Below are positions 7,527 to 31,711 of a stretch of 64,000 nt of DNA, in pieces. This DNA is from Haplodiscus bocki (Eukaryota). Made by a program: the position numbers and the translations under genes. Positions within the stretch are counted from its first letter, which is position 1. Each line of letters opens with the position of its first letter. The notes under the pieces are model-generated. The model had not been told where the DNA came from. It saw only the letters and a program-made list of their open reading frames with translations, and ran no database searches. The stretch is from contig OZ296651.1 in the NCBI GenBank assembly GCA_965655095.1, forward strand, positions 87,544,001 through 87,608,000, in the 5' to 3' direction.

Positions 7527-8609
7527 AGTTATTAGAATAATGTTATAAATTTTGATCCTACAGCGATTGCAAATGCATGCCAGACAGCACAAACAAACTT
7601 TATATGTAACATGGAGGGAGATGCATAAGCGTAGCTCGAGCTTACCACGATTTTATTGACTACTTTTTGAATCCCGTTACAAGTACCACAGAAAAACAGC
7701 GCATGGGCCTGAAAAATACGTGTCCGCATGTACCCCTGCATTTTAATATAAAATTACTAGCGTTTCCAGAAAAACGCAGACATTTTCGCAGAGCCGGCAC
7801 ATTCAAAGTCATGTTCAAGTCTCGTGCATCTATTTTGTTTGCCATCTGCTAGCCATTAGATTTTTCGATGAGACAGATGCCATGTATTTTCATTCAATGA
7901 CCTTGGAAGAGATAACAAACGCGATCAAGCAAAGTAAAAGTACGCCTTCCACAAAAAAAACCAAAGTAACTCTCAGTCATTTTTTCAACAAAACCATATC
8001 GAGTTACTTTCAAAACACCCTAATAGCTGCAAATTGGCAATCTGAAGTAGAAATGCGAGTTTAATAAGCATTCAACTCCTACATATTCAATTATAACACT
8101 TGATTTTTTTGGAAGTTCTTGTCTTTTGGGAAAATTTGAGTCTTCGGTTTCGGTCCACTATTCTGCTTTATTCAAAGCGAAACAGTGCAATATTCCCCTT
8201 TTATCACAATAGTCAATAGGGCAAAAATCAAGGATTGACGACAAAAACTACCAAATTACACCGCTCACTCAAATTTTTATAATCCAAAATGAATCAGGTC
8301 ACGATCAAAGTCGCCCGATGCTATCAAGAACGTTCAATTCACAACGGTTCTTAAAGTAGCCTGCAAAGTCATCTATTTTTTCAGCAAAAATGTGGAAAAT
8401 GCAATCCTTCGAAGACAAAAGTAGTTGACAAAGACAAAAGTAGTAACCAAGCTCTTATGGTTTGTTAGAAAAACCTCATCACTGGAATCTGTTGCGCGCA
8501 ATTTGAAAGTGTGATTTTACTTTTCTATTCAAGTTTAATTGTTGTGATAACCTTGTTAAAAAGCATCGGCTGTTTAAGAAATCTATTCAGATTTACTGTG
8601 AAACAACTG

Positions 8610-9277
8610 ATGACACCGACGCACAACAGCACAACATCTGCGCCAAACCCAGCAAAGAAAGACGATGGCAGCAACCATCTTGTGGAAGGCACTGGCTCTG
8701 GAGTAGACGGGAATGGCTGCAACATCTGGTCAAACGTTTAGGTACGACGTTCATTCCCAAGAACTTCTTCAAAAGACCCTTCGTTTGCAGGTTTTGCGCT
8801 GTTGAGGAGCTGCACAAGATGAAAACTTCTACTCTGGATGAACGGTAGCCAATCATAGAAGCCGAGAGCATCGAGGAGTACGGGCGAAGGAAGAACGTCC
8901 GCATCCTCGGTGAAGAAGAGGAGCCGGATGAAGACGTCTTCGCCAAGCTGATTAGTGTGGCAGGAAAAAGTGGAGTCACAATCACTGCTAATGATGGTAG
9001 TGCTTGTCACCGTCTACCGGGCGGAGGTAAGGGCCCAAAGCTTCTGATTACCAAGTTTGTTCGCCGTGATACTAAGCACCAATTGATGAAGCACAAACAG
9101 AATCTGAAGGAAGCCAATGTATATGTAAATGTTGCCTTGACTCTTCTACGTGGAAATATAACCCACGACCTGAGAGATGAGGATGAAGTTCCCGGTGTTG
9201 TAACTGCAAATAAAAATAACATTGTATTCATGCAAGATGATCAAAAACTGGTATTTGATAATCTTCACAAATTTTGA
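8610..9277 (+). pseudogene. LINE ORF1 (L1-like RRM type)
   Basis: EEYGRRKNVRILG...SACHRL...LITKFVRR...VYVNVALT matches the EQYSRR.N.RI.G / ACHRL / IIVKF / IFINEDLT pattern. Confidence 0.8.
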
Positions 9278-9465: not shown

Positions 9466-12270
9466 TTGTCTGGGAAGTATAAGAAGACGCTGTCCTTCGT
9501 TCACATGAACTTTCAATGTATACCGAAAAAACACAAGCAGTCGGAATCTTTTGTAAATTACATTAAAGAATGTGGTATGATTGATATCTCTGAAGCTTGG
9601 CTTACGCTTGATGCTGCTTTGCTGCTTTATCTAAATGAAGCATCTTTTCTTCAACCTAAAAAACGTTTAGAAGTGATAGAAATCTAAACCTTGAAAAAAA
9701 AGAAGATTGGGAGAGTCAGGTTGTTTGTCCCTTTAAGACTCGCACCGACAGAACGAAAAAATTTGAATATTTTTGATGAACCCAATTTTGAGTCTGAATG
9801 GTTTGAATGCCGTGATAATTTTTCCAATAATGTAGGTCAAAAATGCTTCTGAAGATAGCGAGTAATCCTCTGAAAACTCACCAATATTATTTTCTCAGAC
9901 ACTTAGAACTATTGTTGAGTGATATTGATAAAAGTATCTGCAACTCGTTGCCAATTACTTTGATGGGTGACTGGAAATTAGATTTTTCCACAACTCTTGA
10001 ACGGGAAAATTTAGAAATGGTAAGTTTGACCTGCGGTTTTTCAGTACCTGGTCACACTTTGCCAACACGCATATACAAAACTACGAAAATGCACATTGAT
10101 TAAAATCCAGCGCAAACTATAGCGAAGGAGAAAAACTTTGCCTCAAACAATCTTTACCAAAACCCACATCACTTCGTTTGTTCTTCATTTTTTGACATCA
10201 CTGTTGAAAAACGAAGTCGCATCATACTTCGCAGATTGGACAAGAAAAACTTTGACGAAATCGGTTTGCTTGGCGAAACATTGTCAGAGCTCTCATGGTT
10301 TGAAGTATATCAGTATTCAACTCCCAGTGATATGTTTGATATGTTTGTGACTTTGCTGTCTAGTGCTGTGGAAAAGCGTAATTCACTCAAACAGGTCTGC
10401 ATTAACTAGAAAACTGCGAAGTTTTTTGGGGAAACCTGGTCCGATCATGAGAGCGAAATCTTGCTGGTTGATTGCCAACTCGACTATAAAAAGTACCGCT
10501 AAAATTCCTCTGCTGAAGATTAGTCTGCTTTCAGCAGGAGCCGATTGAAACAAGCAAATGTTTTAAAAGATAAGCAGGAGTCATTCTCCCGAGAAGATTT
10601 TTCCTCCGTTTTCTCTGCGAACAGCCGGTGGAAATTTATTAGAAGCGTCAGAGGGAGGAATCTCCTTTCAGGTACTCTCACAGCCGTGTGAAATTCGTTT
10701 AGTCAGTTGAAAGTTGATAATAAAAAATTGCCGAACACTTCAAGTACGTTTTCTCCATTCTATGAAAGTACTTTAGCGAATATATTGAGAAGCTCCTCTT
10801 TTTTCAGCTGATTGTGCTTCTTTTTGTTTTTCGGCCGTATGAGGGACAGATTGTTTCGATATCATTATTGACTTGAACCGTGATAAATGGATCCTTCTGA
10901 TTTTCCCACTGGGCAAATTATGACGGTAAGCAAATCCTTGATCCTTATCTAACTTTCACTATAAACGGATGAATTAAAAACAGCAGCTTGTGGCAAAGCT
11001 AAAAAGAGCAATCAAAACACCGATTTATGAATAAATGTGGTTGGTGTTCCACATGCAAAAAACTATCGTCAGGTTTCGATTACTACATCCTACTCATTGA
11101 GCGTACTTTACATAGACAAATAACAAGCTATGTTGAAATTATTAGAATCCTTACAACATTGCAAATTGGATTTAGGAGTAGGAACTCATGACAAGATGCC
11201 GTTCTTTAGTTTATTGAAACACTTCGTCATGAGATAGAAAACAGCAACTTAGATTGTGCTATGCTTTTGGACTTATCTAAAGCTTTTGACTCATTATGAC
11301 ATCAAACTCTTCTGAAAAAAAAAACGAAATTTTGGAAATTTTTTCAGTCGGCTGTTGAATGCACTGAGAGTTTCTCAACGATGAGATTACAGCAAGTTAC
11401 AGTAAGTGAAAAGGTCTCCAATTGGATTGAGTTGAAACAAAGTGTTCCTCAAAGACATGTGCTGGGGTCACTGCTGTTCAACTTATACAATACTGACCTC
11501 TCGAATCACATCAGTGAAGTTTCTCAAATAATAGAGTATGCTGACGACTGGTGGCCCTTTTGCAGTGATAGTGAACAAGAGAATGCCTTTAACCGCTTAC
11601 AGGAAAGTATAGTAAAACTGGAAAAATACTTTTCTCTAAATCGATTGATTTTGAACGACATTAAAACAGGAATCATCAATTTTTCGCGTAAGATTGATAA
11701 ACATCTACTGCACTCTAAAATAATTTTAGTAGGTTCATCGAAATTTGAAAAGTCGAATCAATATAACTACCTTGGTGTAACCGTTGACGAGCAGCTAGAT
11801 GTCCAGACTGAAAACAAAACGGTGTTGAAAAAAACGGCTGCGGGAGTAACAACTATCGTATCTACACTTCTTAAATTTCTAACAACATTCCTTCTCAGGT
11901 TTTTTCACGCTCTTGATAAGGGTCCATTCAAATATTCTGCTCTACTTCTGCTACAAAGTACCTCACCGATGATATTTTGATTAGAAAGGGAGATAAATTG
12001 GGCTTAAGAGTCTGGTAATTTTTAGTCCAGTTCTTAGAGTTCATTTGACTTGAGAAAACAGAAAAGTTTATGTGACGTTTGGCAACATTTGAAACTGAAG
12101 TCAACGACCTATTTTTTCATTGAACGAACAACAAAAAAAAACATTTATGGCCAGAATAATGTTAACCACGGCAAACATCCCAATGAAAAACCGCTCGAAA
12201 AAAAACTTTTCTTTTCAACAATGTATCATCTGCTTCAAAATTCTCCTTATCCTTCTTTCACCACGTTTCC
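9466..12270 (+). pseudogene. LINE ORF2 (AP endonuclease + reverse transcriptase), many stops and frameshifts
   Basis: SFVHMN, ISEAWL, LMGDW, PTRI..HID (endonuclease); NYRQVS, LDLSKAFD, SVPQRHVLGSLLFNLY, YADD, YLGV (RT). Confidence 0.9.
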
Positions 12271-12556
12271 CTGAAGTGGAAATCAGTGCCCTTAGGCATG
12301 CGAGATACAAGCGTAAGTTTTCAGGTTTTTGAAAGTATACTGACAAAATTCCTTTTCTAACACAGTCTAACACAGTTTCTAAAAGAAAGTCTACAACAGT
12401 TCTTGTAGATTTAGCCAAAACTCAACGTCTTTTCTGCTGCAAATATCTAATGCCCTTGTAATGTTTTGAAAAAATCATTTTTAATTGATGCATAGAACAG
12501 TCATACTTTATTGTATTTTTAGTGGCAGCTATCCGAAAACAAATTTTACAGTGTTA

Positions 12557-12854
12557 TGTGATATACACACAAATTAGAGAAGAAGTCCTGAAAATGTATC
12601 GGACAAGAGCTCAATTTGTATGTAGGTCTTATTTATGACTTCTTTAGAAGTTTTGATTTAGATATCAACTTAGATTTGACGCAATATCCAAGTAAAGAAT
12701 GGTTGTGTTGTCTTCAGGAATCTTAGAAATCGTTAACGTACGCAAAGTAGTGAATTAACATCAAGTTATGCAAGTCTAGATAAGGCTTCCCTTCCGTCGT
12801 AGTATTAACTTCAAAAATAACCCACACAAACAAGTTTTTATGAAAGTTGTAACT
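12557..12854 (+). repeat. 5' LTR of giant Gypsy element
   Basis: Aligns along its length with 29137-29433 (e.g. AAATCGTTAACGTACGCAAAGTA; GATTTAGAwATCAACTTAGA), roughly 70-75% by eye. Confidence 0.88.
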
Positions 12855-12857
12855 TTT

Positions 12858-12870
12858 TGGTGCGGCGTTA
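12858..12870 (+). other. Primer binding site TGGTGCGGCGTTA
   Basis: TGG-starting motif 3 nt after the 5' LTR end; cognate tRNA not identified. Confidence 0.6.
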
Positions 12871-15449
12871 TTGAAAATTAATCCTCGTCAGTCTTCTCGG
12901 ACTTCACTCTCAAAACTTTCTCCCACTCGTTCTTCTTCTATTTTACATTCTTATGCCTCTTTTCAGTTTTCAGACGTTTATTCAAAAAAAATTCAAACGT
13001 TAACTGAACAACTCCTTCAAATTTCGTTCAGTCGGTTCGATTCCAAACTTCCAGTCTTTTGGACTTTAAACTTCGACAGTTGTTTTGACTAGAGACTTGG
13101 CCATAATTTTACATTTTTGCCCGCCGTCAGTCCTAGTGACTGAATCCCACCTCGACCCTAATTATAATCCACTCTAGTCCGTATATTAGATTCTGAGTTT
13201 AGAATGTTCTAGTCTTCGGGCAGCAATCATTTTCTACCATTTTGTTCCGCCTTATCGTTCACACTTTGAAATATTAGAATTTCCGTTTACGTCGACTTTT
13301 TATCAACACTATCTCTGAAGATTTTCATAATTCACTTCTGCAAGTAATCATTCTTTATCTGAACCTTTTATTACCATTTCCACTGATTCTTTTCCATACA
13401 GTTTATACACTAAACTGTGTAACTTCTACTTAGCAAATTTCATTGCTATTTTCTGATCATATGAGTTCTTTTCATCGAGAAAACCTACTCTACTCTCGAA
13501 ATGATCTAACTTTTTCTGTTTTACAGACTTTCCTTGTAGGTAGTTTCCTATTCTGTGGCTCTCCGCTAGATACTGAACTTCGTTCTATCTATTGAAGTTC
13601 TCTTGTCTTGCAAAACGTAAAAAGAAAATCTTGCGATCAGCATTGATCAGACAATGTGCGCGAACGTTGATTTTTCAGAACTTTGCACGGAATTGTTTTT
13701 TTTTGAATTTCACTAACATTCCTCTGATTGAACGCAATTTTGAAACTTTTCATGACTTTTGCAAACAACTTTGTGCTTGAACCCAAACTATTCATCTTCA
13801 ATGCTTCAAACCCTCATCGTATTCGTTTTATTGATTCTTGACTGTTAGAATTGTAGTTACTTATAAAACAATCTGAACGTTTTTTCATTTATTTCTCTGC
13901 AAAGAATTGTGTTAGCATCTCTTATACTGAGCTCTGAGGTCTTTCGGATTCCAATATTTCCCATTCCAATCTGAAACAATTATGAAATCATGTCAAAGAG
14001 ACACAGAACTGTTGATTCACCTTCAGAAGTTCCTTCAGAAAAGAAAATGAAAGAAACTAACAAGCAAGTTGAGAATCATACTGAGAGTTTCTTCAAGATC
14101 AAACATCTGTAGAACCAAAAACAAACCCGGCTGAAAGTACACAACAAAATGAACGGCAAATTTTGGTACATTTTCGTTCTGACATATATACTGCCCAAAT
14201 AAAGAATTCATCTGTAGAATTAACAAACCTCTGAAGTTTTCTCATTAGAGCACACTCAAGCTGAAAATGAACGTTAACGATTAAAACATCAACGAAGAAT
14301 TGAAACTGAAGATCATTTTTCACGAAAACTTGAACTGGGACGTAATCAATTGATACAACAATTGAATCAACCTGATAACGAAATCCAACAAGATAAGACT
14401 AATTCTGGAAAATAACAAAACTATACCTCCAACTTCGAAGAAGATATCACCACAGCAAGTTGCCAGACCCAATTTTTTTTTCTTATCCCATTCGTGTTTC
14501 ATATAAGTACAGAAAGGGAAAACCGAGCGGTTTTTTTGGATGTTATTTGCTTTACACTAAATGCCATGAAAAATTCAACAATTTCTGTAACTTTTCAAAA
14601 AACACTGTAAAAATTTTATTCAATTCCTCTGATTACAGAACAGCATGATTTTTTTTGTTGTTGTAGGTTCATTATAAATCTTGTGAATCGAGTTCCGCTG
14701 ATATACCTTTCACTGTAGTTTTTATCTCAGTTAACAACATTAACACTGCAATCTATTCGAAGACAATAAATCAAAAAGATAATTTTTTACCAATTCACGT
14801 TGTGTTCGTACATTTTATGATTAAACTGCAAGAAGCTAATGAAGTTCTATGACAACCAGTAATTGTTTTCTTTGTCATCGATGAATTCCGTAACAAACAA
14901 CACTTTTTTGAAACTTCCGATATGGATAAATTTTAAAAAAAAACATAATAATTCACACCACTGGCTTCTGCAATACCATCAAACGAATGCTGTCCAAGTT
15001 ATGCTCTTTTCCAACTAACTGTTTTAGACACCGTAAAAAAACCACAAATTGAATTTTAATTTTCATTTCTGAGAATATTCTCCCTATTTAAATATCAAAC
15101 TATTTTAAAAATTTTAGATCGAAGCTGTTTTAAAAACTTTTCAAATCTTTTCACTGAACTTAGTTTACTTCCAATCTTGACTAAAAATGAAAATGTTCAT
15201 CCAAATAATCCTAATTCACTCCAAATCAATACTGAAAGCACTTTCCAACTAAATTTTCTACCCAATGTGATACACAAGCTACCACTGCAAATAGACCTAT
15301 TGATCATACTATTGTTGATTCTTTTGGTGACCAGTTGATCATAAGCAAATTCCTCTGAACATCATTGAAAAATTTTCGAAATTGATGAAAGAATTTGACG
15401 TTATTACGCATACCACTAAAATGACGAATGCAAAAACTTCAACAAGTTG

Positions 15450-18400
15450 GTTTTACAGTATGTATTTTCACTCGCAAAAAAAACTGAGTCAAAATTACAT
15501 TCAAGACTGCAAATTGCTTTTCTAATGGATATTGGTGCATCTAATTCAGTACCTAAAATAATAACATGTAAGATAATCACTCTAATGTTCAAAATTTTTA
15601 TTCATGGTCAACATGATACAACCAAAACGTTGACTAATGCAAATCAATCTGAAGTTCCAGTTAAACAATTTATCTCTGTAACTTGTTTCTCATAAAAAAA
15701 CGAAAACAAGATGTTTCAAGCTTCCTTCCAGTGTAGCTGATATTGAAAATGATATTCCGGAACTCCATTGTTTAATAAAAACCTACAACTTATCGAAAGT
15801 CCACCAAGAAATTCAAACCTTCTTCCATTGATCAAACCATAATTGCTTCCTTTACCAGGATGATTGAAAAAAATCCCAAATTTTTATCTATTTGGCAATT
15901 AAAATCAAAACAACAAATTATATTAAACCTAAAATTGTTCAAACATTACATTTCCATCTGAGAAATGCACAGACTTTATTGCTTGAAACTAAAAAAACTT
16001 GAACCATTTTTTGCTGACATGCCCCAAACTCAATTTCTGTCAAAACTGAATTGTTATTTTACCTTTAAGGAAATTTTAATGAAGGACTCCGAAAATTCGT
16101 GCTCAGTGGTAAATAAAATCAATACAGTGCATATGGCTACGCTTCCAACTCGAATATTAAGTTTCATAGAATTTCTCACTACCACTGTGAAACTATCTCA
16201 AAATAGATATAATGATTGAAACACACAGAGTCATTCGGTAGCTTTTACCTACTACCCTGAAAAAACTGAACCAAGAAGTGCTTTTCATCAAGTTTCGAAA
16301 CAAAAAAACAATTCTTTCGAAATTAATCATATTGATCTGTGAGAAGGCGCCTTAAATAAAAACTTTGTCTGTAAAATACAGCTGTCTCCAATTTTAGCTC
16401 CGCCAGTATTTCCATCTTTACTACACTCTATAGAAAACTTGCAACTCCTGAAAAAAATTCATTTTGAACATGCTGATCATAAAAACTCTGAAAATATTCA
16501 ACTCTGCAAAAAATAATGTTGAAAATAAACGCTGTTATCCTACACAATTACAGAGGTCGGAAAATTTTCCACTCCATTTAAAAAAAGACTGAACCTTGAT
16601 GCTAAACTGCGAAAACAAAGACGCACCAAAATTGCTATTCATTATCAAGAAAAACTGAATATTTTACTGGATGGTCTGCCAAAAATGAAATAAAAAAGGA
16701 TTTAGCTTGACACCTGCTGAAAAACCAGAGTATAGAATTAATTTTTTGAACGCATTCATTGCCACAAAAAAGAATAGTCCCAATAAAAATGTTGAAAATT
16801 AGACATCTCAACTCAAACAATGATCAGTCATCTGAACCTTGGCCGCTGGAAGCTTTAGCAACTCGGCTGGCGAGGGAAAATTAAAAATAAACATCTTGAA
16901 TTGACCTTTGTATGCATATGCACAAGCTACCTAAGATGAGGGAAATGGTAACTTAATTGGATTTTCAACTGGTTATAAGCTTTTTGCGTTTGTGGACCTA
17001 AAGTTCTTCCAAAGTTTTGAACACAACAAATGTCTCTTTTCTACAAAGACGTGGTCCGTCAAGGTTCACCGCTGGCTTATATTGATGCTATCATGCTGAT
17101 GTCAAAGTCCAAACCACCTATGCTGCAACTTGTCATACAACTTCATGATTTTGTTAATAAAGAAAAACTGATGTTAGCTCCTGAAAAATCTTCCTTCATG
17201 CTTCTGACTGTAAAACATCAGGGTCAAGAAATTGGCTTGAACGCAAAAAAACCAAGGCAATCCAAACTAGCTTATATTCAGAGAATTCCCTCTGCGACCA
17301 CAAAAATTGAACAGACAACGTTCATTGGCTCAATGAAATTCTAGTTTTTGGTCTGAGTTTTTTATTTTTTGATATACTTGATGTTAATATGAAGCCTCTT
17401 GTGTTTACTCCAATAAAAGTGTTCTTTTCACTAGAACAGGGAATTGGACACACTGTTTTAGCAAACAAAACATCTCTTACAAAACATGTTAATCTGACCG
17501 TACTCAATAAAAGGCATCCCTTCTTTATTACAGTAGATTCTCCTTTGTTTGGTATAGGCTGTGTCCTGTTCCTGAGTGAACGGTGAAGAAAAATGGGATA
17601 TTGTTCCATGCATTTCTCATATTTTAATCACTAATGAACAAAAACTCTATCTTAAATTTCTTGAACTTTTCAGAATAATATATTCACAAACTTTATAAGA
17701 ACATATTTTTTATTGTCTCTGATCATTTCACTAATGTTTTGAAGGATAACCAACCAAATGTTAGCTGTTTCACCAACAAAAGAAACCTTTTTCCTATACT
17801 TTACACTGCGTAAAAGAAATTAACCAAATTTCGAAGACCTTGTAATTCTTTAAGGAATAAAAAGATCTCTGTAGCTGATACGCTAAGCCGTTCTTTTACT
17901 CAAAAAGACTGCAACTGAATCAAGTAAAACATAAACAATTACATTTTCAAAGTGTTCTTGAAACACTGATTCATGACAACCCAATCAAACCTGCACAAAA
18001 TTTGGTCAAACATGACTCTGTACTTCCTTCACAAAGGACAGTTGTTGTCCCATTTTTAGCTGATTTCCTCAAAGAGCCATCCTCCGTTGGTAATATTGGC
18101 AATGGGGAAAACATTATAATCAAACCACTGGATTTTTTCAAATTTGAAGCTGCCAAACCATTCCAAAGCCAAAACAGATTTAAAAAACAGTCAAGAAAAA
18201 CACCAAAATTTTGCTACAAAAATCTACAATTTTGGAAGATACTGATATCACTGATGATGATGATCCTATGGAAAAAAATACCACAAGATAATGATTTTGT
18301 GCCCTAATTCATCATTAGATAAGAACCCATTTACCTCTGAAAAACAAAAAAGAGTATGAAAACGAAAATTTACAACTGCAAGCTATTCATGAAACATCTC

Positions 18401-19900
18401 TCCTCATTCCAACAAACACCTAAATTTATTGAATTATTCTTACCTCCTGATACTCCATGGAACATTGAAACAAAGCCGATCTAACAGAAAAACGATCCTA
18501 TTCTGAATGTTGTATATGAATGGATCACCGAAAATTGACGTCCTGTGACAAAAACACATAATAATATTGCTAGTGTTTTCTTGCTAGAAAATTATCGATT
18601 ATTTCTAAACCTGTATTTTGATGAAAACACTAAACTGATAACTATTGGAAACCAACTTCTGAAAATTATTGATAAGTTCCACAGTACATTCATGGTAACT
18701 TCTAGTCTCAAAATTCTCGCTTAAGCTAGTCACTGACTTTACATTACTATGCGTTTGATAAAGTTCATGAACACTCTCATTATGGTCCGCATATTGTACA
18801 AAACAATTTTTTTGATTAACATTGTATTCCACTTCTGCAAAAATGGCAATCATTTTTGATTCACGACCGTATTGATTGTCAACTGCATAAACACAAAACA
18901 AATGAAACGAATGAAAGCTGCAAGCCTACCATTCTGGATTTGTCAACTTTTTTTAAGCATAGTATCTCTATGTATGGACACTAAGAGTCCAATAAACCAC
19001 AATTCTGAGGAAAACCATTAAACTTTTGTATTTGGTGACCTTTTCAGCAAGTACATTGTAACTGTACCACCTCCAAAAAATATTGCTCGCTACGCTGTAA
19101 ACCTAATGTTTCAACACTGGATTTCAAAATTTCGTCCTTTTCAATATCTAATTACAGGGAGAAGGACTGAATTTTTGCACTCTGGAAGAGCAAGTTGCTG
19201 TACTTGATTTAAAACTCGTCTTCTTGAAAGGAATTTTTATGCTGCTGGAACAAATGAATCTGTTGAAGCACAAAACAAAAATCTTGGAACTAACCTACAA
19301 ATGTTTACACATGATACTCCAGAAAACTGGTCCATTCATGTTTGATGTTTAGCTTAAGCTCATGTTTTTTTAAAATCTATCACATCTACATACTTCACAA
19401 TATGAAATAGTTTTTCATATGCAACCGCATATTCCACAGAATTTTCAAAGAAAAACTTTTTCGAAATCACTTTCGTCTTGGTACTGCAAAAATCTGTTCC
19501 GATTTTGCTTCTCATTTTCAATACCATTGAAATGATATAGATCCGTTGAGTTATAGCATCATGATAAAACCCATTTTTTTTGGTTTTTGCCCATGAAACA
19601 GAAATGCTGCAAAGTTTTTCATAGGTGTATCAAAACGCTCTAAAAAATCCTCTCGCCTTTGCAATTCAAAACACACCCAATGTTGATAAAGCATTGCCGC
19701 TGGATTTGTCTGTTTTACATCAAACTTTTGATGGTGTTCAGTTTTTGGATAAAAAGAGACGACTTCGTAAAGGTCCTTTCAAAAATTCTTACAAGCCTAC
19801 GGACGTCAGGTATGAACTTCTGACAGAAGATGCAAAAACGTATCATAAACATAGACAACATTTGATTCCACTTTAATCCAAGAAATTTTACAACTTTTTC
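15450..19900 (+). pseudogene. pol: Gypsy pol (protease, RT, RNase H, integrase)
   Basis: FLMDIGASNSV (protease DTGA-like, ~15520), LAYIDAIMLM (YIDD-like, ~17080), FFITVDSPLFGIGCVL (RNase H), MDTKSP / DLFSKYIVTV (integrase core, ~18975-19065), KGPF (GPY/F, ~19770). Confidence 0.9.
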
Positions 19901-20664
19901 ACTTTTACTTATACGATGAACAAAACCTGGGAAGATTCCACGATTGTGATTCATCTGACAAGTTTCAAAATGACTTATACACTTCATATGATATTTATGA
20001 TTTGGATGAGAATGTTCTTATTGATGACCGATTCCGGAATTACAATGATGATGAACCAGTTTTGTTTGATATTCAGCTTTACAAAGCTGAAGTAACTCAA
20101 ATGATAAAATTTCTCATACACAGGGATCAAAATTTGATTCTGAAAATTTGCATTACAAACCAGGCTCTTCGAATTTTCAATCCTAAAAAACATTCCCTGA
20201 ATTACTTGAGCTTCCCGACACCGATACCGTTTATAACTCCTCCACATCATTTGCTGACAAATGCAGTTTCTCTCGGCGCTTTAACCAAGCAGAAGCCTCC
20301 AACAGAAATACTCGAACCAATTATGAGCTACGACCGCTACCTAAAAAAACTCATTATTTTTCCAGTCCTTCAATTTCCTCCTCGCATAAATCATCAATTT
20401 TACCAAATTTAAATTGAAGAAACTTGCTCATGGAAATTGAAATTGCTGATAGAAAGCCTATGGAAACATCCACAAAAGCCTTTGTCTTGTTCATCATAGA
20501 TTTTATATGTTGTATTTTGACTTTGAGACTCTGCTATTCATTCTGGGAAGAAAATCAAAATCCCGAAATTGAAGAGTTCTCGCTCTTGAAATTAAAATTG
20601 AAAAAATTGGAACAATTACCACGGTAGTATATTTAAAATGGAATCAGTTTGAGGTATTTCAAAA

Positions 20665-21750
20665 ATGACAACTCGGATTGAATTACTTGAAGAAGCAGTT
20701 CAATATTTTAAACCAATAAACACTACAACTAATATTTACTTATCTGATACTGACGTAGTTCTGGATTCATCTTCGGATTCAACAGAGAAGAAACACCTTC
20801 CACTACTCCACCAGTTTCTGAAAAAAAGCTCAAAATTTATAGATCTACTGTTTAAACACCAAGCAAATCTCAGAAAAAGTTTTCTTCTCCCGAAAACTTA
20901 ATTAATGCTACTGTAACTGTTCAAAAACCTCCTTTTTCACCATTACCGGTAGCTCTGGCTATCACCCCTTGACTTATCCTTTTCCCGGATACACCTGATA
21001 TAGATTTTCCTCCATATCCAATACCGCGTCCCTCTTCTACTAGAACAGTAGCTAGAAAATCAGAACCTTTCAACCACCGAAAGCCATTCGACGCTACACT
21101 CTGCGATGAACCTACGACTTCTGTTATGCATGACAAAATTTCTGAACCATCTAATTTTTTCAGTCCATCTGATCTTAGAACTGCTTTTGATGTTTGCACT
21201 GAACCATGATATCTGCTATGTCCAAAACTGTCTTCGAGTTTATACTCTGAATCTTCTGTTGATGATTCTCTTAATTGTGAATCCAAAGTTTCATCAATTA
21301 TTACATTAACATCCTCTTCTCACACACAAGCCCATTTTTATAACCTGAGATCAATACCGATGCAAACATTGTGTTTTTTTAGCTAAAGATCAACAACAAA
21401 GTCAATTTCTGCAAATTTGCATCAACATGCACAACCTCATTCATCTACCTCGGAAAATCTTCCTTCCTATCTTTCTGATCCTCCACTTTCACTGAAACTA
21501 TTTTCTGGTTTGGAGTACTTTTAGTGTGCACTCACACCCAGGATCCTTTCATCTAACTGGAAACCAAGAGTCAGTCTCTTCCTTGAGTGCTATTAATACT
21601 GCTGATTTTCCATATCATTCGCTAGAAAAAAATTCTAGCTCTCCTACAATTGATCCCCATCATTATCCACCGAGACCTGATAATCAAATATTTTATCATC
21701 TCAGACAAGGATATCGTATTTTTTCTCTAAAAAAGAATAAACAATAGCTT
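20665..21750 (+). pseudogene. Ser/Pro/Thr-rich ORF remnant between pol and the glycoprotein
   Basis: MTTRIELLEEA... continues through frameshifts as low-complexity S/P/T-rich sequence (KPPFSPLP, DFPPYPIPRPSS); may be the N-terminus of the env ORF. Confidence 0.4.
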
Positions 21751-21759
21751 TCAATGTTC

Positions 21760-24300
21760 TACTGTTACTCGTAATCGAGAAAGGTCTCGGTTAACCTTAA
21801 CTACCACTGAACTAAAGTTTGAAGTAACTGTAGAATTCACTGGATTGAATCCTCATCTAATTTGAACTCAGATTAAATTTCGAATTTTTTCCAATCCGTT
21901 TGTCGTGATTAGTTCACACTTTACTTCCACAAACGAACCTCCATTTGATCATCAGTGGGGAAGTAAAACTCTTTACAACCCTATCTCTGGTTTAAAATAC
22001 AAAATTTTTCCGAAACCTTTGACTTTATTCTCAGTATTTTTAAATGTCTCTTTACTGGAAACTGCCACCACTAACACCTCTGAAATTTTAATTCAACTTG
22101 ATGACCCGAGGATTACCCAACTCCTAGCCATTCATTAGGTTTGTTCGAAACGTTACAATCTGAGACAATTTATTTTAACGAGGGTACAGAAATGTACTCA
22201 AGTTCCCTCTGAAAAAAACGTACTAGAACATTTGCCCCTTTAAGTAATCGTGCCAAAGCGAGAAAACTTAAAGCCATTTGCCGTTCTGCAACAAATCAAA
22301 AAACACAAGTGCTTTGCGATCAAGGTTCACCTGACAAAATTTATAGACATTATCGTGTGCATTGGCATACTAATTTCATGCCTTTACCAGAAAAACTGGA
22401 ACCTAAGGAATGTAAACACAGTATCTAAAAAGTTTATGGTACGGTTTGTGCTGAATTGAACCAACATTCTTTTAATGACTCTTTCACCTATCCTGATAGA
22501 CTGAGTTTCTGCTTCAACTAGAAAACAAACAGACGCTATTCACTGTAATCTAACTGGACACTGTAAAAAATGGAGTATTAAATCACCAAGGTAATAAATA
22601 TGATTGGACTAGTGGTTTTGACAATTCAAAAGTGAATCCATACGTTCCCATAAAGATGAAAATCTTATTGATAGAGGAAGCTGGTCAGTCATACAAGGCG
22701 GAAAATTTTTGGAAAACGATAATTAATTAGATAAATTAACACTTGAAAGTCAAACCCTTCCATATTTGCATTCTGATGGTTGTTGCAAGCCAACACTGAA
22801 ACATCCATATACTATTGTTTTGGTTTCCTGATGGAATATGTTCAATATTTCATATCTCTGATTTTATTCTGCGTATGTCTGAGCTGAAAAAAGATGTTGG
22901 TTAAAAATTGATGATTTTTAAAAAGCATTGGAGAGAACACTGGAAAGAACTATCAAGAGCACACTGCCAACTGTATTTCCCTATACTAATTCATCTTCGG
23001 GAACTGCTACTCCATCTTTATCCAGTCTGGAATTCTTCTCACAAACGAATATTTCTGTAAGAAACCTACACGAATATATACAAATCAATAACTTGATTTG
23101 TTTGTCACTCACCTTGAAGTTTTTATTATGAACACTGAAAACAAAAACCCAATTGTTTTTGATGAAGATCCATCGCTCACTCAAAGTTGAATGTCTTCAC
23201 TAATGGTACTTGACTCTGTAAAAATTTAAAAAGATTTCCCTTCACTGAATTATTCAAACAATTTTGGTACTGTAGACTATGCTGCTCACAGAAATACAGA
23301 AATATTTTATTCTATCAACCAGGTATCTAAATCTGCTTCCATCCAAGAACTGAATACAGAACATCATTTGTGTAAACTAGAAAGAACACGTTTTGCTAAC
23401 TATATTAGTAATTTCTGTTGAAAATCCTCAACTTTCTGGTTGCTTTTTAACGGGAAAGCATTGCAACTTTCTCTAAGTAGAAGGCTCTACTGCTTGTTTT
23501 TGTGACTGTTAAGTGACAGCTTCGTTACTTTTTTCACCTCTGTATGAAGCTCATAAATATTTTGATCAAATACCAATAAACTATCAAGATACTGTATTGT
23601 ATATAGATCCTATAGCAACTTAAAAATTCAAAAAAGCTAAACCTTTATCTTGTGATAACAAACCACAAAAATGTATATCATTAGAGCTTGATAATGATAA
23701 ACACTGTGTACTGACTCCTAAACCTGTACCTGTAATACGAGCCACACCAAGGCTTTTTGAACCAAAAGAAGTCCAATCTGCAAAACGTTCAAATACTTTT
23801 ACTGCATATGCAGCTGGAAATTATTGGAATGTTGAAATAACAAACTTCTGGAATCGTGTTTTTTTTTCACGAAACATCCTAATGAAGCACCGATTCTTCG
23901 GAAAAAAGTTCTCTCGTTTGACTTTTCAGCTACTTTTGAAAAACATACAACTGTTTCAATTCAAATCCTAACAAAAATTGATATAAAAATTACATTGTTT
24001 TGAGGGATGGTCTACTTGATCACCTCCTAAATATTTTTCTTCTATTTGCTCTTGATCGGATTGGTGCTGCATTTTTTGCGTTTTCTGGCTTTCGATGTAA
24101 AGTTCTCACTTATTGTGGATTATCTTCTTCCACTTTTCTGTTTTTCCAATAGGTTATCACAATCCTACTGAAGTTTTATATGTCTACTTCAATTAAGTTT
24201 CGACTTCTTGAAACCATACTGAGTTCTCTAGTCCATGGATTTTTAAAAACACCAAAACAAAATGATGATTGTTTTGAATGATGCCAAAAGTAACAAACTT
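21760..24300 (+). pseudogene. env: Envelope glycoprotein remnant, chuvirus-G/class III fusogen-like
   Basis: By-eye translation across frameshifts: CSKRYNLRQFILTRVQKC; HHLCKLERT..ILVISVENPQLSG.FLTG...VEGST..CDC; PLYEAHKYFDQIPINYQDTVLYIDPI...LSCD; AAGNY; hydrophobic stretch near 24060-24180. Cys/motif spacing matches my recollection of chuvirus-like glycoproteins. Confidence 0.7.
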
Positions 24301-27300
24301 CAACCCAAAAGACTTCAACGTGTAGATGACTATCCTAAAAAATCTTCAACAGATAGCAGCTGGAAAAGTCAAAAAAATTCTGTGAATAAAAAATAAAAAC
24401 CCATGCCTCAAATTTCCCAAAGTATTGAACCCTCCAGCTTGCTGTCAATTGGCAAACGTCAATTCAATTTAACTGAACCTGAGAAGATTAATACTTTTCC
24501 TTGAACCTATCTGCATAACACAAAAATGTCACCTGGAAAACAGTCTCTCGATAATTTTCAGCTAACGTTATCTTTCATGACTCAACTGTCTGATGCTACC
24601 CCACAATCATTCGTTAAAACAACTTGTCACCCACAACCACCCTACCTATGTATCACATATTTTCAATATTATTGTCATACAATATGATTGAATCAGAACT
24701 GCTGCAAACTAACGAAACTGTCATTGGTTTTTATTATCACCATACATGTTCATCAACGATGATCATATAACTCAGGTTTTCTGATTTTTTTTGAGATTCT
24801 GAAAACTTCCATTCTTTCCCTGTCTCTCATTGAATCACGTTTTTCCTTATTTTTGCAATATAATTTTCAAGTTCACCCATCTCACAAACTTCTTGAATGA
24901 AAAAACTCTGGAAGTTTTCTTGCGCTCTGTGAAACCTTTTAACCATCCACTCTGCAAAAGATTTCTTTCACTCTGCAATACTACAGTTCTGAAATAAAGA
25001 TCCTACTCTTCTAAAGTTTCCTGCCTCAAAAAAACCCGTCGATTAGAAATGACCAAACAAAATCCCAACCAGTTTAAAACAACCCTACATCCATGTCAAA
25101 ACTTAGGTAGAATTACCAAACTGCCTTCTTGTGAGTACCACGGAAAAAACGTTGGAAACTTCTTTTCTTTCCACTGAATTTGAACGTCAAGCTTTGGTGG
25201 TTGCTGTACCTAATGATTATATAGAAACTGTTAAACCATAAGACTCGCTTTCTAATCTTTCGGAATTTTTTACTCCTTTTATTGAAGCTAAGAACCCTTT
25301 ACATGGTTCTAACGCGTCTCTGAATGATGAAATGGAGTTTCTAGAAGCCTCTAGTAGTTTTCTTTTTAAATGTTAGAGATGATTCAAAAACTCCGCGAAA
25401 AAATAAGTTTTCGCAACCTGCTTCTTCAAAGTCTCCTAAAAGGGAAGACGATTTCTAAATTGACCTTGCATTTTCAACCTCAAATGTTATGCCTCCTTTT
25501 TTGAAACCATCAACAAAACTGATTTACATAGAGATTTTTCCTTAATTTCCCATTGTCAACTGAAAAGTTTTATTTCCAATCTAAACTAACTTCACTGTAT
25601 AAGGTTTGAACAACGTATTCAACTCAATTGAAATCTAATTACTACAATGATTTTATTATCTGGTATGCATCTAAGCATTTAGCCACACTTGAAAACTGGA
25701 CTGCCAAAAAAAATTCACTCTGCAATTGAACTTTGTACGCGCTTCTTTGTTCGGTTTACATACTCATGATTCGAATCCAAATTTTATATATTTTAACTTC
25801 CACTGATTTTGCAAATATATACCTTGACTGCATTCCAACCACAATTGCTCACCACTATCCACAATTGTCAAAAATCTTTGACCATCCACTGAATGACAGA
25901 GGCCTGAAAAATTTTAACACATTTGCTTTGCAAAACTGTCCATAAAACGAATTCCTCTTTGTAACTGGTCACTCAGCTGCTTCCATATCAAAAAAGCAAT
26001 ATCGACATAATTCACATCCTAATTCTCAACCTGCATCTTATGCTAAAGTTACCTCCTCTTCAAAAAGGTTCAGAAAGAAATCAAAAACTGAAGATGTCAA
26101 TGATCAACCAACTGAATTTTAAAAAATGTTTGAGCATAACAAACGAATTCCAGAAATAATTAATCCCTGCGGAGCTAATTTTTCTGAAATACCTCACATT
26201 GAAATTCTGAAGATAGTTCTTCAAGGATTTCACGCTGTACATACTTCATGCGCAAAATTGCAATTGAGTCTGAAAACAATGCAATACTCTTCTAGTGACT
26301 GGCGATCTGCTGTCACATTAGTGAAGCGACTTTTCACTAATAACTTTCCATCAAAAATATGCCACTGAATTTTCTCCAATTTTGAAAAAATCGTTTGTAT
26401 GTAACATGAGAAAATTTGCTTTAGTTTGTATGAGTTTATACCCCTGATAGAAGTTCCTCACACTTGGAAAAATTCCTCTAAAAAGTTGAAACTTTGTCAT
26501 TTCTGAGCATATTTTATCCCAACTACTGAGGACTCCCAAAAAACGTAGTTTGCTAGAACTAATTTCCGTAACAAATAGTTTAGGTTTAGAAACACTCTTC
26601 TCAAATCCCGCTTATAGTGATGTAAACGTCTTCGCCTGGCTGCCACAACCAAACCACCGAATATTCAAAAATCCGAAGATAATTTCAAAGTGCTGCACTA
26701 CAAGTACTCTAGAACAATTCTCTTGAAGCTCCAAAGGAAACACCCTGAAGAATGTAATAGAGTTTTTTCTTTGCCATCATTTTCATGTTTATCTCTTCAA
26801 TTTTCTCTCATCTCAGTTAAACGATCAAACTGACTCTTGTTCTATCATCAACACTATGCTACATCAGCTACAAAAGCAAAACCATTCGCTGGATACATTC
26901 TATGATCAAAATTCCACTGATGCGGAAAAATGGGAGAATGAAATGATTATTGTTTTTACTCAGACTGACCTCGATGAATCTTCTGAAACTTTAGTTTCCC
27001 CGAAAAGTAACTTGTTAGCCTCTCGTGGATGTTTTAGTAATTCTGAAGTTTTCCCAGAACAAACCCGCAATTCATTGTGTCTCTCTGAAGTTTGATGAAT
27101 TCTCCACTGAAAAAAATGATACCTTACAAGTTAGTTATGCACATTCTGAATATCTCTCTACTTTGCTTGCAGCTCTTCCACGCCAAGATCCTTCTTCAGT
27201 AGTGACAAAACTTCTTCGTGATCTACCTCAATCCTACTTTATGATTCCACAACGTCATTGGCATTTTCCTCAGGAAAACGAGACTACGAATTAGTCATTC

Positions 27301-27549
27301 ACTCACTTTTTCAATACTCTCCCTCGGATATTTGAAATGATTCCAGAAAAAACCCGTCTACAAATATTCCTCACAGAACATTGGAGTACTGCAGTTTTGT
27401 GAACCACACTTCTGTAACTTTATAAACAACAACTCTGATAAATTATCAACAAATCTTCTCGATCTTTATAAACACAACTTCAATTATATTTTATAGAAGC
27501 AAGCCTCTGTAATTCGGAAAAGTTTTTTTTTCTTTCTCAGAATTTTTTC

Positions 27550-27730
27550 AGTGGCTCCTCACTGGCTCCTCACTGACTCAATGTTTGTTTGTTGTAGCTG
27601 GATTTCTGGTTCACTGCTCTTTTGGCTCACTGCATTTCTGGCTCACTCATTTCTGGCACTGTATTTCTAGATCACTGACTTCTGGTTTTCCAGACTTCTG
27701 GATTCACAGCCCTCTGGCTCTGCTTCTGAT
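27550..27730 (+). repeat. Imperfect short tandem repeat (TTCTGGCTCACTG-like, ~12-16 bp units)
   Basis: ctggctcctcact, ttctggttcactg, tttggctcactg, ttctggctcact, ttctggcactg, ttctagatcactg in succession. Confidence 0.7.
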
Positions 27731-29136
27731 GTTCTGCATTTCCTGACTCGGCCTTCTTTGTCTTCGATCATGCCCAGAATGATATATCACATTCCACTGG
27801 AATAGATATCAAGGTGATTGTTGGTGTTTTTCTGGAAAAAAAAACTGATGACTTTCTATCCACTTTTCTTGCCACTGCTCAGTTGTGAATAAACACGACT
27901 GTTTTGTCGTCCCGATCTGCTTCGAAATGAATCTGGCTCACAATACTCAATCTGGTTCAACTACCAGTGCTCATACTGATTCACTTTTGCGTCACCCAGG
28001 TATTTGCTCCGATGGCAACAAAAATCAGACGCGCACTCATGTGAAATCCGGTCTCCGAATATTGGTTCGAACAATACAATTTTGGACACTTTTCATCAAA
28101 AACTTTTCTCCTTTAAAATAACTCTTTATAAACTCGAAACTCGTTAGATTAAATTAATATCAACAAAAAGTTCTTTTGCAATTATGAGATAACTGTCTTT
28201 GTAATAAATTTAAATATTGACCACTCAAGTTGCTACTTTTGTAATCATAAGTGCTTTGCACCCCCTCCCCTATCTGATTTCCTCAAAACTTTTTCTCGCC
28301 AAGATTTTATTTAAGTCCCGCTCAAATAAAGTTGAATAAAGAAAAGCAAAATATTTAATTGTCCCAACCAAAAAAAGTTTTTCCAGTGAAAACTTCTCCG
28401 GAAAACCCTCTGAAATCCAATCAAACCTGTGAATTTTCTAAACAACATTCTGAAAGGACTTTTACAATCCAACTATTTGAAATTAATACCATTTCGAAGA
28501 GTGGTTTTCTTAATCCATCTTCTAAGCGTTGACGGTGAACTTAAATTTCCCTGAAGTTTTCACAATATTCAGTTCAGACTTGTCAAATCGTTCACCTTTT
28601 CTCACAGGTGCTAGACTCTTCTATCATTTGATTTTTGGCAGCACAGTAAACGGAAAAATAAACGTTGCCACTGAAGACCATGAAGAAACTGGAAGTCTGA
28701 AAAATGCTCACTTTGCAAAAACGTTCAGAACTCAAACTAAATGGCTCATTTGCTCCCTGTTCAAACCTTATGTGTAAAGTAGAGAACCTCATGTGTTGAA
28801 ACTCCCCAGATCAAAATTGAACTCTAAAACTTTCGAAAGAAAGTAAAACGACCAATGAACCAACAACAATCAATTGAGATGGATATTATATGATTTTTTA
28901 CACCTTAAAATAAAGGTCGATCACTTCAGGTTCAACGGAGAAATCTAGTCTAATTTACTAAAAACTCCTGTAAAAAGGGAAATTTCTGAAAACATGAACA
29001 ATTTTACAACTAGAACACATCACTGAGAACAAAATTTTTTCAGGAGACCATGTTGAAACCAAAAACTGAAAACCTTTTGAATGGTGCTAAATTTGTATAG
29101 ACGTGCTCGGAATTTCAAATTAAAATTCCCCGCGGA

Positions 29137-29433
29137 TGTAATACAAACACATTTTGAAAAGGAAGTTCCTGAAATTTCATTGGAGAAAAAGTAACTTTGA
29201 ATATAGTTCCTAATTATTACTTTTACAGAAGTTACTGATTTAGAAATCAACTTAGAGTTGAAGTATTATCCAAGTAGAGAAAAGTTGTCTCTTCTTGAGA
29301 AATGTTATAAATCGTTAACGTACGCAAAGTAAGGCAATAGCATCAAGGTTAAGCAAGTGTAGACAAGACCTCTGTCGTAGTGTTAACTTCAGTAATAACC
29401 CAGACAAAAAAAAATTTTTAGAAAATTATTACA
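29137..29433 (+). repeat. 3' LTR of giant Gypsy element (TGTAAT...ATTACA)
   Basis: Perfect 6-bp terminal inverted repeat, followed by TSD GTTA. Confidence 0.9.
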
Positions 29434-29880
29434 GTTATCTCTCTGTTTCCCTCAAGGAAGAAGGAGCGAAATCAAACCCAGGGAAAACCTTCTTTTCGAT
29501 CAAGAAGGACTATTGAATCAATCAGAATTGTTTCAAAAAGAGGCCTGATAGCAACCAAAAGGAAAAAGTTGTTATGGCATGCTTTTATTCACCCACAGGC
29601 GTTTTTGATAGAACTCCGGCATTTGTTGCCCTCATCGGATGGGAAAACTCCTAAAAGCAAACAATAGCCTTGCGATTATAAATACTTCTAGGCTAACTGG
29701 TCGTTTTTCGAAAAAAGTCACGGTTGGATGAAAAACAAACTTTTCACCAGGAAAGTGCAAAACTCCGTTGTAATTCACTATAAACTTGTCCTTGCAACAA
29801 TTAAAATTAACCTTAAGGGTGTCAAATTATCCATTTCTTCAAAAAAATTTGAACGTCCAAACTTTAGAGCACGCCAACAA

Positions 29881-31711
29881 TGAAGTACAGCGTAAGGGTC
29901 TGAGTTCACTGATTGAGGGCAACGGTTGACTGTAGTGTCCACTTCAGAAGAAAGACCATTCTGAGAACCACCTTCGCTATAATCCTGGTTAGCCCTGTCA
30001 GTCTCCCAGGAAATTCCTGGAGCAGCGCCGGACTGACCATGGAATTGTGAGTGCAGAAGAAACTAGTGTAGTTTTGAGAGTGCGCCTAGTATCCCACTTT
30101 CGTTTTCTGCTGAATTGCTGAATTTCTCTTTGGTCTCTCAACCCTCAAATTCAACAGCAACGTGCGCGATGTACTCCTCATTTAATTTAAGTGGTTTCTT
30201 CACTGGCAACAATTGCTTTCCTGGATGCTGTTCTTGACTGCAGCTAATCTTCCCGTTTTCCACATATCAGTTTTTTGGAAAATACTTATATCGTTTTCAA
30301 AAATGACATGACTTTTTTTCATTTGAATGTTTTAACTCGAACAAAAATGCAACACACCTGAGTATTATCAAGAAATTTAACGTTTCTGTATGTTGGTCTT
30401 CTCGTTTCTGCTAATTATACCCTTTCTTTGGCGGAAGCATTTTCTTTTATAAGCCGACAAGTCGAGGTACAAAAAAAGGTAAGGTAATTTGATTAATGTA
30501 CTTCAAAGTTGTTTAGCCAACTCTAGAGGAAAAAAACTTCTTTCCATTCTTTTCCGCCTCCAAAACTTGCGTCATTTCCATCTTTCAATAGATAAAAGGT
30601 GGACCGAATTCATCGAAAAAGGGCATCGAAATGGTAACTCCTGTGGCGATTAATTTATTAGTTTATTACTTCGTTTAAATAATTTTCATACTTGGGAAAA
30701 CAAAATGTGAGTTGTAAAATAGTGAAAAACTCAACACTAACTACGTGTAATTCGTAAAAAAAACTGAGATGGAGTAGCAGTTAGAAGCGAGTAGAAACTC
30801 GGAGAGTTCTTAGTATTTGTCCCTCATTAGTACTGGTATTCAATTGCTTTTTCCGGAACAGTTCCGTGTTCACTGGTAGCAAGATTGTCGTTGGTGAAAT
30901 ACAGTGAGTGAGTTACGCGGTGGACTGAATGCCGCATTTGTTCCGTCTTCCTATTTCTTAGCTAAATTTTCATTACAATAGTGGAGCAGTCAAGCAAGTT
31001 GAAGACCTCGTCAGACCTGTAGTGACATAACACGTAAGGAAGAAGTAATCTCTCCTGGAATCTATAACTTTGGATTACAGCTCCACTATTTAGCTTGCTA
31101 TAGATGACAGTCGTATCGTTTGCATTACAATACTGCAAATGAAATATTTCGGAAGCTTAGAAATGGTTTTAGATATTCAGGTAAGAAAATTTTACTAAAT
31201 GTAGCACCTCCAAATTATCAGAGGAAGTTGACTAAATCATTGTTTGTTCCGTAACGGCTCCGTCCTAATGTCGAACAGCTTACGAGAAAGTGATACGTAT
31301 AATTACGGATAATTGTGCTCGAACAAAACGTAAGAAAATATGATCAACAAGCAAAATGGCATGTTGGTCAGACAGTCTCTCAGTTCCTCTGGAAGGTAGG
31401 AATTAGTTTTCTGCAGACTTCGCAGATATGTTGCGACTCTAATAATTGAAAATTTTGTGATTTTTGATGTCTAAATTGAAGTTTCCGACGTATTTTGATT
31501 GGATGATTTTACTGATGTCACAAATATGGAAAGAGTGATGTTAACTCCAACGTAACTTTGCGCCCTAACAACTCAGTAAAAACGTTTTTAGGCGTTGTTC
31601 CAGTCAGAGGTCGGTAAAAAAAATTGTAATTGCCTGGCTAGTTTTTGACCTTGGAGTTTGTGTCTAACCTCGGGAATTTCATGCCCTCGTAGCAGGGTGA
31701 GAACTCTCTCA
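29881..31711 (-). mobile_element. Old solo LTR related to the 1444-2994 LTR, carrying a degenerate gag N-terminus; ends approximate
   Basis: Minus strand 30265-29881 reads NEEYIAHVAVEFEG...SGILGALSKL..FLLHSQ...SVNSDPYAVLH, collinear with Gag residues ~1-135 and stopping at the same point; leader/hairpin homology at 30414-30610. Confidence 0.72.

What the first reader, a model, noticed from the sequence alone, without database searches (positions are those of the whole stretch)
21760..24300. Gypsy element with a chuvirus-like/class III fusion glycoprotein: candidate non-canonical endogenous retrovirus lineage
Seen: downstream of integrase, a broken ORF with Cys-patterned motifs (LCKLERT..ILVISVENPQLSG.FLTG; FDQIPINYQDTVLYIDPI..LSCD) and a C-terminal hydrophobic segment. 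Known: insect errantiviruses use baculovirus F-type env; chuvirus glycoprotein capture is described for BEL/Pao elements. Inference: an independent capture of a class III fusogen by a Gypsy lineage. The family assignment is from remembered motif spacing only.
Basis: partly seen in the sequence, partly recalled or inferred. Interest (0 to 1): 0.75.

Follow-up and report, generated by a model that had tools for sequence, protein, structure and literature searches.

The report
Dead Gypsy retroelement with gB-type envelope
This is a decayed 17-kb retrovirus-like jumping gene that carries a broken envelope gene whose intact relatives are predicted to fold like herpesvirus and chuvirus membrane-fusion proteins; the combination is real but already described in many animals, so it is a further example rather than a new kind.

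Summary
Window 22100-24248 is a broken envelope gene, collinear with an intact 911-aa relative (13 of 16 cysteines kept). Intact relatives match Pfam Monjiviricetes_fusion (PF24664); their predicted structures match herpesvirus gB and chu-like virus G. The window's own pieces did not reach that Pfam family. The gene is not a separate insertion: it lies inside one 16,877-nt element with 78%-identical LTRs (12557-12854, 29137-29433), a GTTA target duplication, a primer site, and Ty3-like PR-RT-RH-IN pol remnants. Thousands of diverged host contigs cover env and pol alike. Correction: 21760-22000 is not env but the end of an unassigned extra ORF that overlaps the env start in relatives. The novelty claim fails: Chary and Hayashi (PMC13524379) report Gypsy elements with this chuvirus-like gB-type env across many phyla and argue an ancient origin; this scan noted two such elements before on other DNA. 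An independent capture is neither shown nor excluded. Left open: the host (not determined; acoel-like by recall only, a group whose names do not occur in that survey) and the extra ORFs. New member of a known kind; this copy is dead.

The parts
12553..12556 (+). left target-site duplication (GTTA)
   Evidence: same four bases follow the right LTR
12557..12854 (+). 5' LTR, 298 nt, starts TG, end decayed
   Evidence: 227 of 292 aligned bases identical to the right LTR
12858..12869 (+). primer-binding-site-like stretch starting TGG; first 7 bases shared with the site behind the likely LTR of L001; tRNA-Gly is a weak guess (9 of 12 bases)
14467..15278 (+). decayed N-terminal part of the gag-pol polyprotein; about 780 codons of the relatives' gag (capsid, zinc finger) have no match in this copy
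   Evidence: P0288, P0292, P0313; E 1e-7 to 5e-12
15409..19921 (+). decayed pol: protease (~15460-15790), RT (~16400-17340), RNase H (~17365-17910), integrase (~18425-19921) with GPF motif at 19772-19780
   Evidence: collinear with P0288, E 4e-152; Pfam RVT_1 E 5e-5 on the window's own RT piece, below cut-off
19922..20360 (+). likely integrase tail ending in a YxLR motif
   Evidence: weak, E 0.02
21333..22010 (+). remnant of an extra ORF between pol and env, no known family; firm match 21740-22000, weak match 21333-21446; in relatives its last 19 codons overlap the env start in another frame
   Evidence: no family hit
21960..24400 (+). broken gB-type / chuvirus-G-like env; aligned 22100-24248 to residues 57-762 of P0485; signal-like segment ~22020-22070; membrane anchor ~24050-24190; many stops and about six frame changes; outer limits approximate
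24400..29136 (+). 4.7-kb 3' region, repeated in the host genome, with stop-poor stretches that may be decayed accessory ORFs; unassigned
29137..29433 (+). 3' LTR, 297 nt, TG...CA; no clean polypurine tract is left before it
29434..29437 (+). right target-site duplication (GTTA)

Best explanation
The interval holds the broken envelope gene of one long-dead, full-length Ty3/gypsy-type LTR retroelement (12557-29433), and its intact relatives are predicted to fold as class III (herpes gB / chuvirus G type) fusion proteins that would let the element's particles pass between cells. Shown: LTRs, target duplication, gag-pol remnants in PR-RT-RH-IN order, env collinear with intact relatives, repeat status of the whole element. 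Inferred: the element copied itself by tRNA-primed reverse transcription and integration; env entered the secretory route by its signal segment, was anchored by its C-terminal helix, trimerised and fused particle and target membranes, most likely carrying the element from somatic cells to the germline as in fly errantiviruses. This copy cannot do so: every ORF is interrupted and most of gag is missing.
For: Env: 341 relatives; 17 of 17 long relatives scanned pass the PF24664 cut-off; 120 of 120 listed profile hits carry PF24664; P0485 aligns over 680 of 911 residues, 13 of 16 Cys kept, and passes PF24664. Models of two natural relatives give herpes gB first in PDB (E 1e-12 and 7e-14; VIA Z 9.1, rmsd 9.4, 369 aligned and Z 9.3, rmsd 14.5, 385 aligned) and chu-like/xinmovirus G first among viral models (E 7e-28). 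One element: LTRs, TSD, PBS; L001 is a gag-pol-IN-env element with long open frames and homologous pol and env; the extra ORF P0283 shares a cluster and a contig length with pol P0235 and overlaps the start of env P0485 over 19 codons, shuffles at most 8; 7,594-8,853 contigs per run, most under 90% identity, lie across pol and env, depth lowest in the two outer bins. Gypsy: Ty3 is the best solved-structure match for both pol relatives.
Against: The window's own env pieces hit no Pfam family; the assignment rests on relatives. Both models are middling (pLDDT 63-64, pTM 0.43-0.44), TM-scores to gB are 0.2-0.3, and Z 8-9 is only just above the tool's background of 7-8. With the second-closest relative only 10 of 16 Cys are kept. 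No RT tree with named clades was built. Fusion activity and particle formation are untested for this family, and PMC13524379 says the entry route of gB-type elements is unknown. Parts of the 3' region have depth only 1.5-3 times the flanks.
Confidence: 0.88

Rival explanations
1. The env was captured independently from a chu-like RNA virus by this Gypsy lineage, separately from the gB-type elements already described.
For: Chu-like and xinmovirus glycoproteins are the best viral matches. The RT motifs of the family look unusual and its env relatives form their own diverse set. [quoted passage not shown]
Against: Identity to viral G in the structural alignments is only 9-16%, so no donor is near. 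Relatives span 24-81% identity and sit with divergent pols, which points to long residence. PMC13524379 argues for ancient acquisition.
Confidence: 0.2
2. The glycoprotein is a chuvirus-derived endogenous viral element that landed inside an env-less Gypsy copy by accident.
For: PMC10084718 found chuvirus glycoprotein insertions near Gypsy fragments without clear capture.
Against: Env lies between the LTRs, on the pol strand, in the same position as in L001; env relatives form clusters of 603 and 1,758 members with full-length copies; overlap with the element's own upstream ORF; env is as widely covered as pol.
Confidence: 0.03
3. Env belongs to the element but does not make infectious particles; it acts within the host cell or in cell-to-cell contact, or blocks superinfection.
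For: No functional data exist for gB-type elements; herpes gB needs partner proteins. No RNA evidence was obtained here.
Against: Signal segment, cysteine pattern, ectodomain and anchor are kept across relatives at 24-28% identity, as expected for a working fusogen.
Confidence: 0.2

Closest known systems
HSV/gB-type 'ancient errantiviruses' (Chary and Hayashi, eLife 2026, PMC13524379)
   Same: Ty3/gypsy pol, gag-pol-env order, LTRs and PBS, env with signal segment, anchor, conserved cysteines and predicted gB fold; described as chuvirus-like.
   Different: This copy is dead; 16.9 kb with an extra ORF between pol and env and 4.7 kb behind env (that survey's prefilter allowed 1 kb between pol and env and 10 kb in all). 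Whether this clade is among their 1,512 elements was not tested.
Anakin BEL/Pao elements of mosquitoes (Dezordi et al. 2020, PMC7642597; seen as search listing and as cited in PMC13524379 and PMC12440569)
   Same: Chuvirus-like glycoprotein inside an LTR retrotransposon.
   Different: Here the pol is Ty3/gypsy-like, not BEL/Pao.
Jingchuvirales / Monjiviricetes glycoprotein family (Pfam PF24664)
   Same: Intact relatives pass the family cut-off and match chu-like G models.
   Different: Only 9-16% identity to viral members in structural alignments; carried by a DNA-integrating retroelement.
Insect errantiviruses (gypsy, ZAM, Idefix) with F-type env
   Same: gag-pol-env Gypsy anatomy; model for the inferred soma-to-germline route.
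   Different: Unrelated envelope: class I F protein there, class III here.
Scan findings e1-9887218 and e1-7768745
   Same: Gypsy plus chuvirus-like class III env in two other genomes.
   Different: Those are reported as coding-intact; not checked here.

Membership tests
Ty3/gypsy (Metaviridae) | two LTRs with TG...CA ends | tested here: met
   77.7% identical; both start TG, CA clear only on the right LTR
Ty3/gypsy (Metaviridae) | 4-6 bp target-site duplication | tested here: met
   GTTA on both sides, chance 0.006 for fixed ends; the ends were chosen by eye from the alignment and TG/CA, so the true chance is somewhat higher
Ty3/gypsy (Metaviridae) | tRNA primer site behind the 5' LTR and polypurine tract before the 3' LTR | tested here: inconclusive
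   TGG-started site 3 nt behind the LTR, shared start with L001; no clean purine tract left here, clear in L001
Ty3/gypsy (Metaviridae) | pol order PR-RT-RH-IN with gypsy-type RNase H and GPY/F integrase end | tested here: met
Ty3/gypsy (Metaviridae) | RT groups with Ty3/gypsy | tested here: inconclusive
   best PDB match is Ty3 RT (122 bits) ahead of foamy (92, 66), caulimovirus-type (68, 90) and MLV-type (45, 31) for L001 and P0235; no tree with named clades
Ty3/gypsy (Metaviridae) | gag with capsid domain | tested here: inconclusive
   Retrotrans_gag in relatives; that part has no match in this copy
HSV/gB-type errantivirus | env ORF beside pol inside the LTRs | tested here: met
HSV/gB-type errantivirus | ectodomain between signal segment and membrane anchor, gB-like fold | tested here: met
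   on natural relatives P0043 and P0485, transferred by collinear alignment
HSV/gB-type errantivirus | conserved cysteines | tested here: met
   13 of 16 (P0485) and 10 of 16 (P0488) kept; bridge class C1/C2 not assigned
HSV/gB-type errantivirus | trimer, fusion loops, RNase H mini-domain bridge | not tested
   no complex prediction or bridge model was run
HSV/gB-type errantivirus | intact ORFs (inclusion rule of the survey) | tested here: not met
   this copy is broken throughout; full-length relatives exist
HSV/gB-type errantivirus | membrane fusion or cell-to-cell spread | not testable with these tools
   needs bench work
Monjiviricetes fusion glycoprotein PF24664 | score above the curated cut-off | tested here: inconclusive
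   window pieces: no hit; 17 of 17 long relatives and both closest full-length relatives pass; 3 of 3 short relatives stay below
BEL/Pao Anakin | BEL/Pao-type pol | tested here: not met
   Pfam domains and best structure match are Ty3/gypsy-type; no BEL reference was compared directly
Insect errantivirus, F-type env | class I F-like envelope | tested here: not met
   positive match to class III proteins gB, rhabdovirus G and thogotovirus Gp
Troyka | CG...CG ends, 3-bp TSD, no env, no GPY/F (PMC12440569) | tested here: not met
   TG...CA, 4-bp TSD, env and GPF present

The most novel reading that the evidence does not exclude
The family is an unsurveyed, very abundant clade of 'complex' gB-type errantiviruses, likely of acoel worms (host by recall only), with accessory genes of no known family on both sides of env, one overlapping the env start; it would extend class III envelopes in Gypsy elements to Xenacoelomorpha and might mark a separate capture.
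Probability: 0.35. Interest if true: 0.5.

Novelty: new member of a known kind. Interest (0 to 1): 0.3.

Why it matters
As a dead copy it adds little by itself. Its family matters somewhat more: protein clusters of hundreds to over a thousand members, with full-length gag-pol and env, suggest a genome rich in envelope-bearing Gypsy elements, useful for asking whether gB-type envelopes are under selection and where they are expressed. If the host is an acoel, it fills a gap near the base of bilaterians in the argument that retroelement envelopes are Pre-Cambrian. The unassigned ORF that overlaps env is a lead on accessory genes in these elements.

Tried and rejected
Pfam on 12 frame read-throughs of 14001-30302 gave only a weak RNase H hit and one chance V-set hit; four env pieces alone gave none. 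The word-based protein search with the env piece found none of 248 candidates. Viral contigs: 54 pattern matches, none confirmed. No solved structure matches the env profile by sequence. No RNA holder was listed; this says nothing on expression. Extra ORF P0283: no Pfam, PDB, phage or Atlas hit; an L001 downstream ORF gave only Atlas scores under 0.9; blanks show neither novelty nor absence. F proteins were not among listed fold matches, which does not exclude them by itself. Troyka was considered because L001 seemed to lack LTRs; L001 looks instead like a contig with one collapsed LTR, and Troyka's features fail. Env fused to pol: no env-profile hit among 250 pol-search and pol-cluster proteins. 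No stored protein or locus matches the 3' region. Two env motifs and two primer-site motifs were absent from the survey's 7 supplements, which may hold no protein sequences. Trees of the env and RT pieces only show the nearest relatives; the RT row has a long branch (27 of 28 pols and 31 of 31 envs kept).

Full report
Observation. The quoted motifs are in the sequence: LCKLERT in + frame 1 ending near 23391, the ILVISVENPQLSG, FDQIPINYQDTVLYIDPI and LSCD stretches in frame 2 from 23396, and a hydrophobic stretch in frame 3 near 24050-24190. The gene is badly broken. Pfam saw nothing in it and a word-based search failed, but phmmer of the 192-residue piece over 1.84 billion proteins gave 341 hits at E<=0.001, best 5e-38.

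Identity of the protein. Of 20 hits scanned, all 17 long ones pass the cut-off of PF24664, Monjiviricetes fusion glycoprotein; the 3 short ones hit it below cut-off. A profile of 14 relatives found 369 proteins; all 120 listed carry PF24664. The closest full-length one, P0485 (911 aa, cluster of 603), aligns in order over 680 residues to window 22100-24248, 45% identical in the core, with 13 of 16 cysteines kept; 30 shuffles of the region reach at most 20.8 bits against 155. P0488 keeps 10 of 16. Frame changes fall near 22250-22320, 22490-22510, 22680-22890, 23030-23050, 23390 and 23910-23990. I folded two natural relatives, P0043 and P0485 (pLDDT 64 and 63). In PDB both give herpesvirus gB first (E 1.4e-12, 7.4e-14; TM-scores only 0.2-0.3). 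The wide search ranks gB first (Z 9.1, rmsd 9.4, 369 aligned; Z 9.3, rmsd 14.5, 385 aligned), with rhabdovirus G (Z about 6) and thogotovirus Gp (Z 5.3) below and unrelated helices at Z 4-6; these Z values are only modestly above background. Among viral models, chu-like and xinmovirus glycoproteins lead (E 7e-28) at 14-16% identity. So the remembered assignment was right: a class III fusogen of the chuvirus G / gB kind, shown on relatives and transferred by alignment.

The element. A 300-nt direct repeat flanks the region: 12557-12854 and 29137-29433, 227 of 292 aligned bases identical, K2P 0.265. Both start TG; the right one ends CA; GTTA precedes the left and follows the right (chance 0.006 if the ends were fixed beforehand; I chose them from the alignment). 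A TGG-started primer-site-like stretch follows the left LTR. The element is 16,877 nt. Pol remnants run from 15409 to 19921 in PR-RT-RH-IN order, collinear with a 2,691-aa gag-pol relative (E 4e-152), with a GPF motif at 19772; the N-terminal part of that polyprotein matches 14467-15278, and about 780 codons of gag have no match here. Relatives carry gypsy-type Pfam domains and match Ty3 best among solved structures. I had no named reference set, so the clade within or beside Metaviridae is open.

Is env part of the element? Yes. Metagenome locus L001, one of 7 confirmed among 18 pattern matches, has gag, pol, integrase, env and three further ORFs, with pol and env homologous to the window's. 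In three runs of one study, 8,278, 8,853 and 7,594 contigs lie on 12000-30000, most under 90% identical; summed depth over env (496-1075 in X1) is like that over pol (222-667) and lowest in the two outer bins (50 and 32), though parts of the 3' region fall to 73-140. The tool warns that depth is no copy number, and these runs may be the window's source. Exact contigs bridge integrase to the extra ORF and env to the 3' region. The window's env and RT each group with one set of close relatives at full support.

A correction and a lead. Window 21740-22000 matches the C-terminal part of a 283-aa protein (P0283 and two twins, 42%, E 1e-9) that is filed in the same cluster as pol P0235 and on a contig of the same length. 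The first 19 residues of env P0485 can be read from the last 19 codons of P0283 in a shifted frame; 200 shuffles reach at most 8; P0488 and three distant envs give only 2-4. So the family is arranged pol, extra ORF, env. The extra ORF has no family hit. The 4.7 kb behind env is unassigned. Extra ORFs between pol and env or behind env are known in LTR elements generally (PMC6431247, passages).

Mechanism. Shown: the anatomy above. From established knowledge of Ty3/gypsy: LTR transcription, tRNA-primed reverse transcription, integration with a short duplication. Inferred: env is a secreted, membrane-anchored trimer that would fuse particle and target membranes, most likely moving the element from soma to germline as fly errantiviruses do. 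Untested for any gB-type element according to PMC13524379. This copy is a fossil.

Prior art. PMC13524379 (read: abstract, sections 6, 7, 8, 14 whole, sections 5 and 9 first parts, term searches, first part of supplement 1, searches of all 7 supplements) describes 1,512 env-bearing Ty3/gypsy elements, with gB-type env as common as F-type, and states that the chuvirus-like glycoprotein of mosquito BEL/Pao elements sits next to gypsy pol in 114 arthropod elements. PMC10084718 (4 passages) had earlier found no clear Gypsy capture. PMC12440569 (parts 1-2 of 5) excludes Troyka. PMC7642597 was seen as a listing only. The scan noted two such elements in other genomes, after I had found the paper.

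Host. No tool named it. From recall the window's repeats resemble those of acoel worms; this is untested. One acoel genome is 28% Gypsy and 4.5% Maverick (PMC6451197, passages), compatible with but not diagnostic for this window. Six acoel-related terms are absent from the survey's text and supplements, and two library searches listed no paper on env-bearing acoel elements; subscription papers, figures and the survey's sequence repository were not seen.

Verdict. Observation confirmed; identity right; novelty overstated. New member of a known kind, interest 0.3. The boldest reading left, an unsurveyed abundant clade with accessory genes in a new host phylum, has probability about 0.35 and would deserve 0.5.

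Noticed in passing
window 45110-45660 and 62282-62816: Inverted repeats of about 550 nt, 83% alike, around 17.7 kb of low-GC DNA with weak integrase-like remnants on the - strand near 51300-51760 and 48890-49240: a likely decayed Polinton/Maverick.
   Followed up: partly
window 1097-7529: A younger LTR-like element: 1097-1446 equals 7180-7529 at 99.4%, 1444-1514 resembles 7112-7181, and a gag-like frame starts near 2587; related pieces lie inverted at 30393-30554 and 37218-38018.
   Followed up: no
window 9800-11980: Decayed frames that read like a non-LTR (LINE) endonuclease and reverse transcriptase, by recall; the Gypsy element sits just downstream.
   Followed up: no
window 20430-21330: Unassigned stretch between integrase and the extra ORF, with a hydrophobic segment near 20480-20550 and a Pro/Ser/Thr-rich frame; YxLR motifs recur near 20330, 21340 and 21700 (such motifs are recalled as chromatin-binding).
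   Followed up: partly
L001 9651-10757 and 11157-12095: Two ORFs behind env that look like duplicates of each other by eye, with coiled-coil ends and no convincing family.
   Followed up: partly
L005 947-1897 and 4248-5741: Long ORFs on both sides of env, the upstream one with a hydrophobic segment; no Pfam hit.
   Followed up: partly
window 43199-43597: Tandem 28-nt repeats, seven copies in two groups.
   Followed up: no
protein lists: Three pol and env hits share a contig length (12,398; 10,639; 22,170), a weak sign of further pol-env pairs on single contigs.
   Followed up: no
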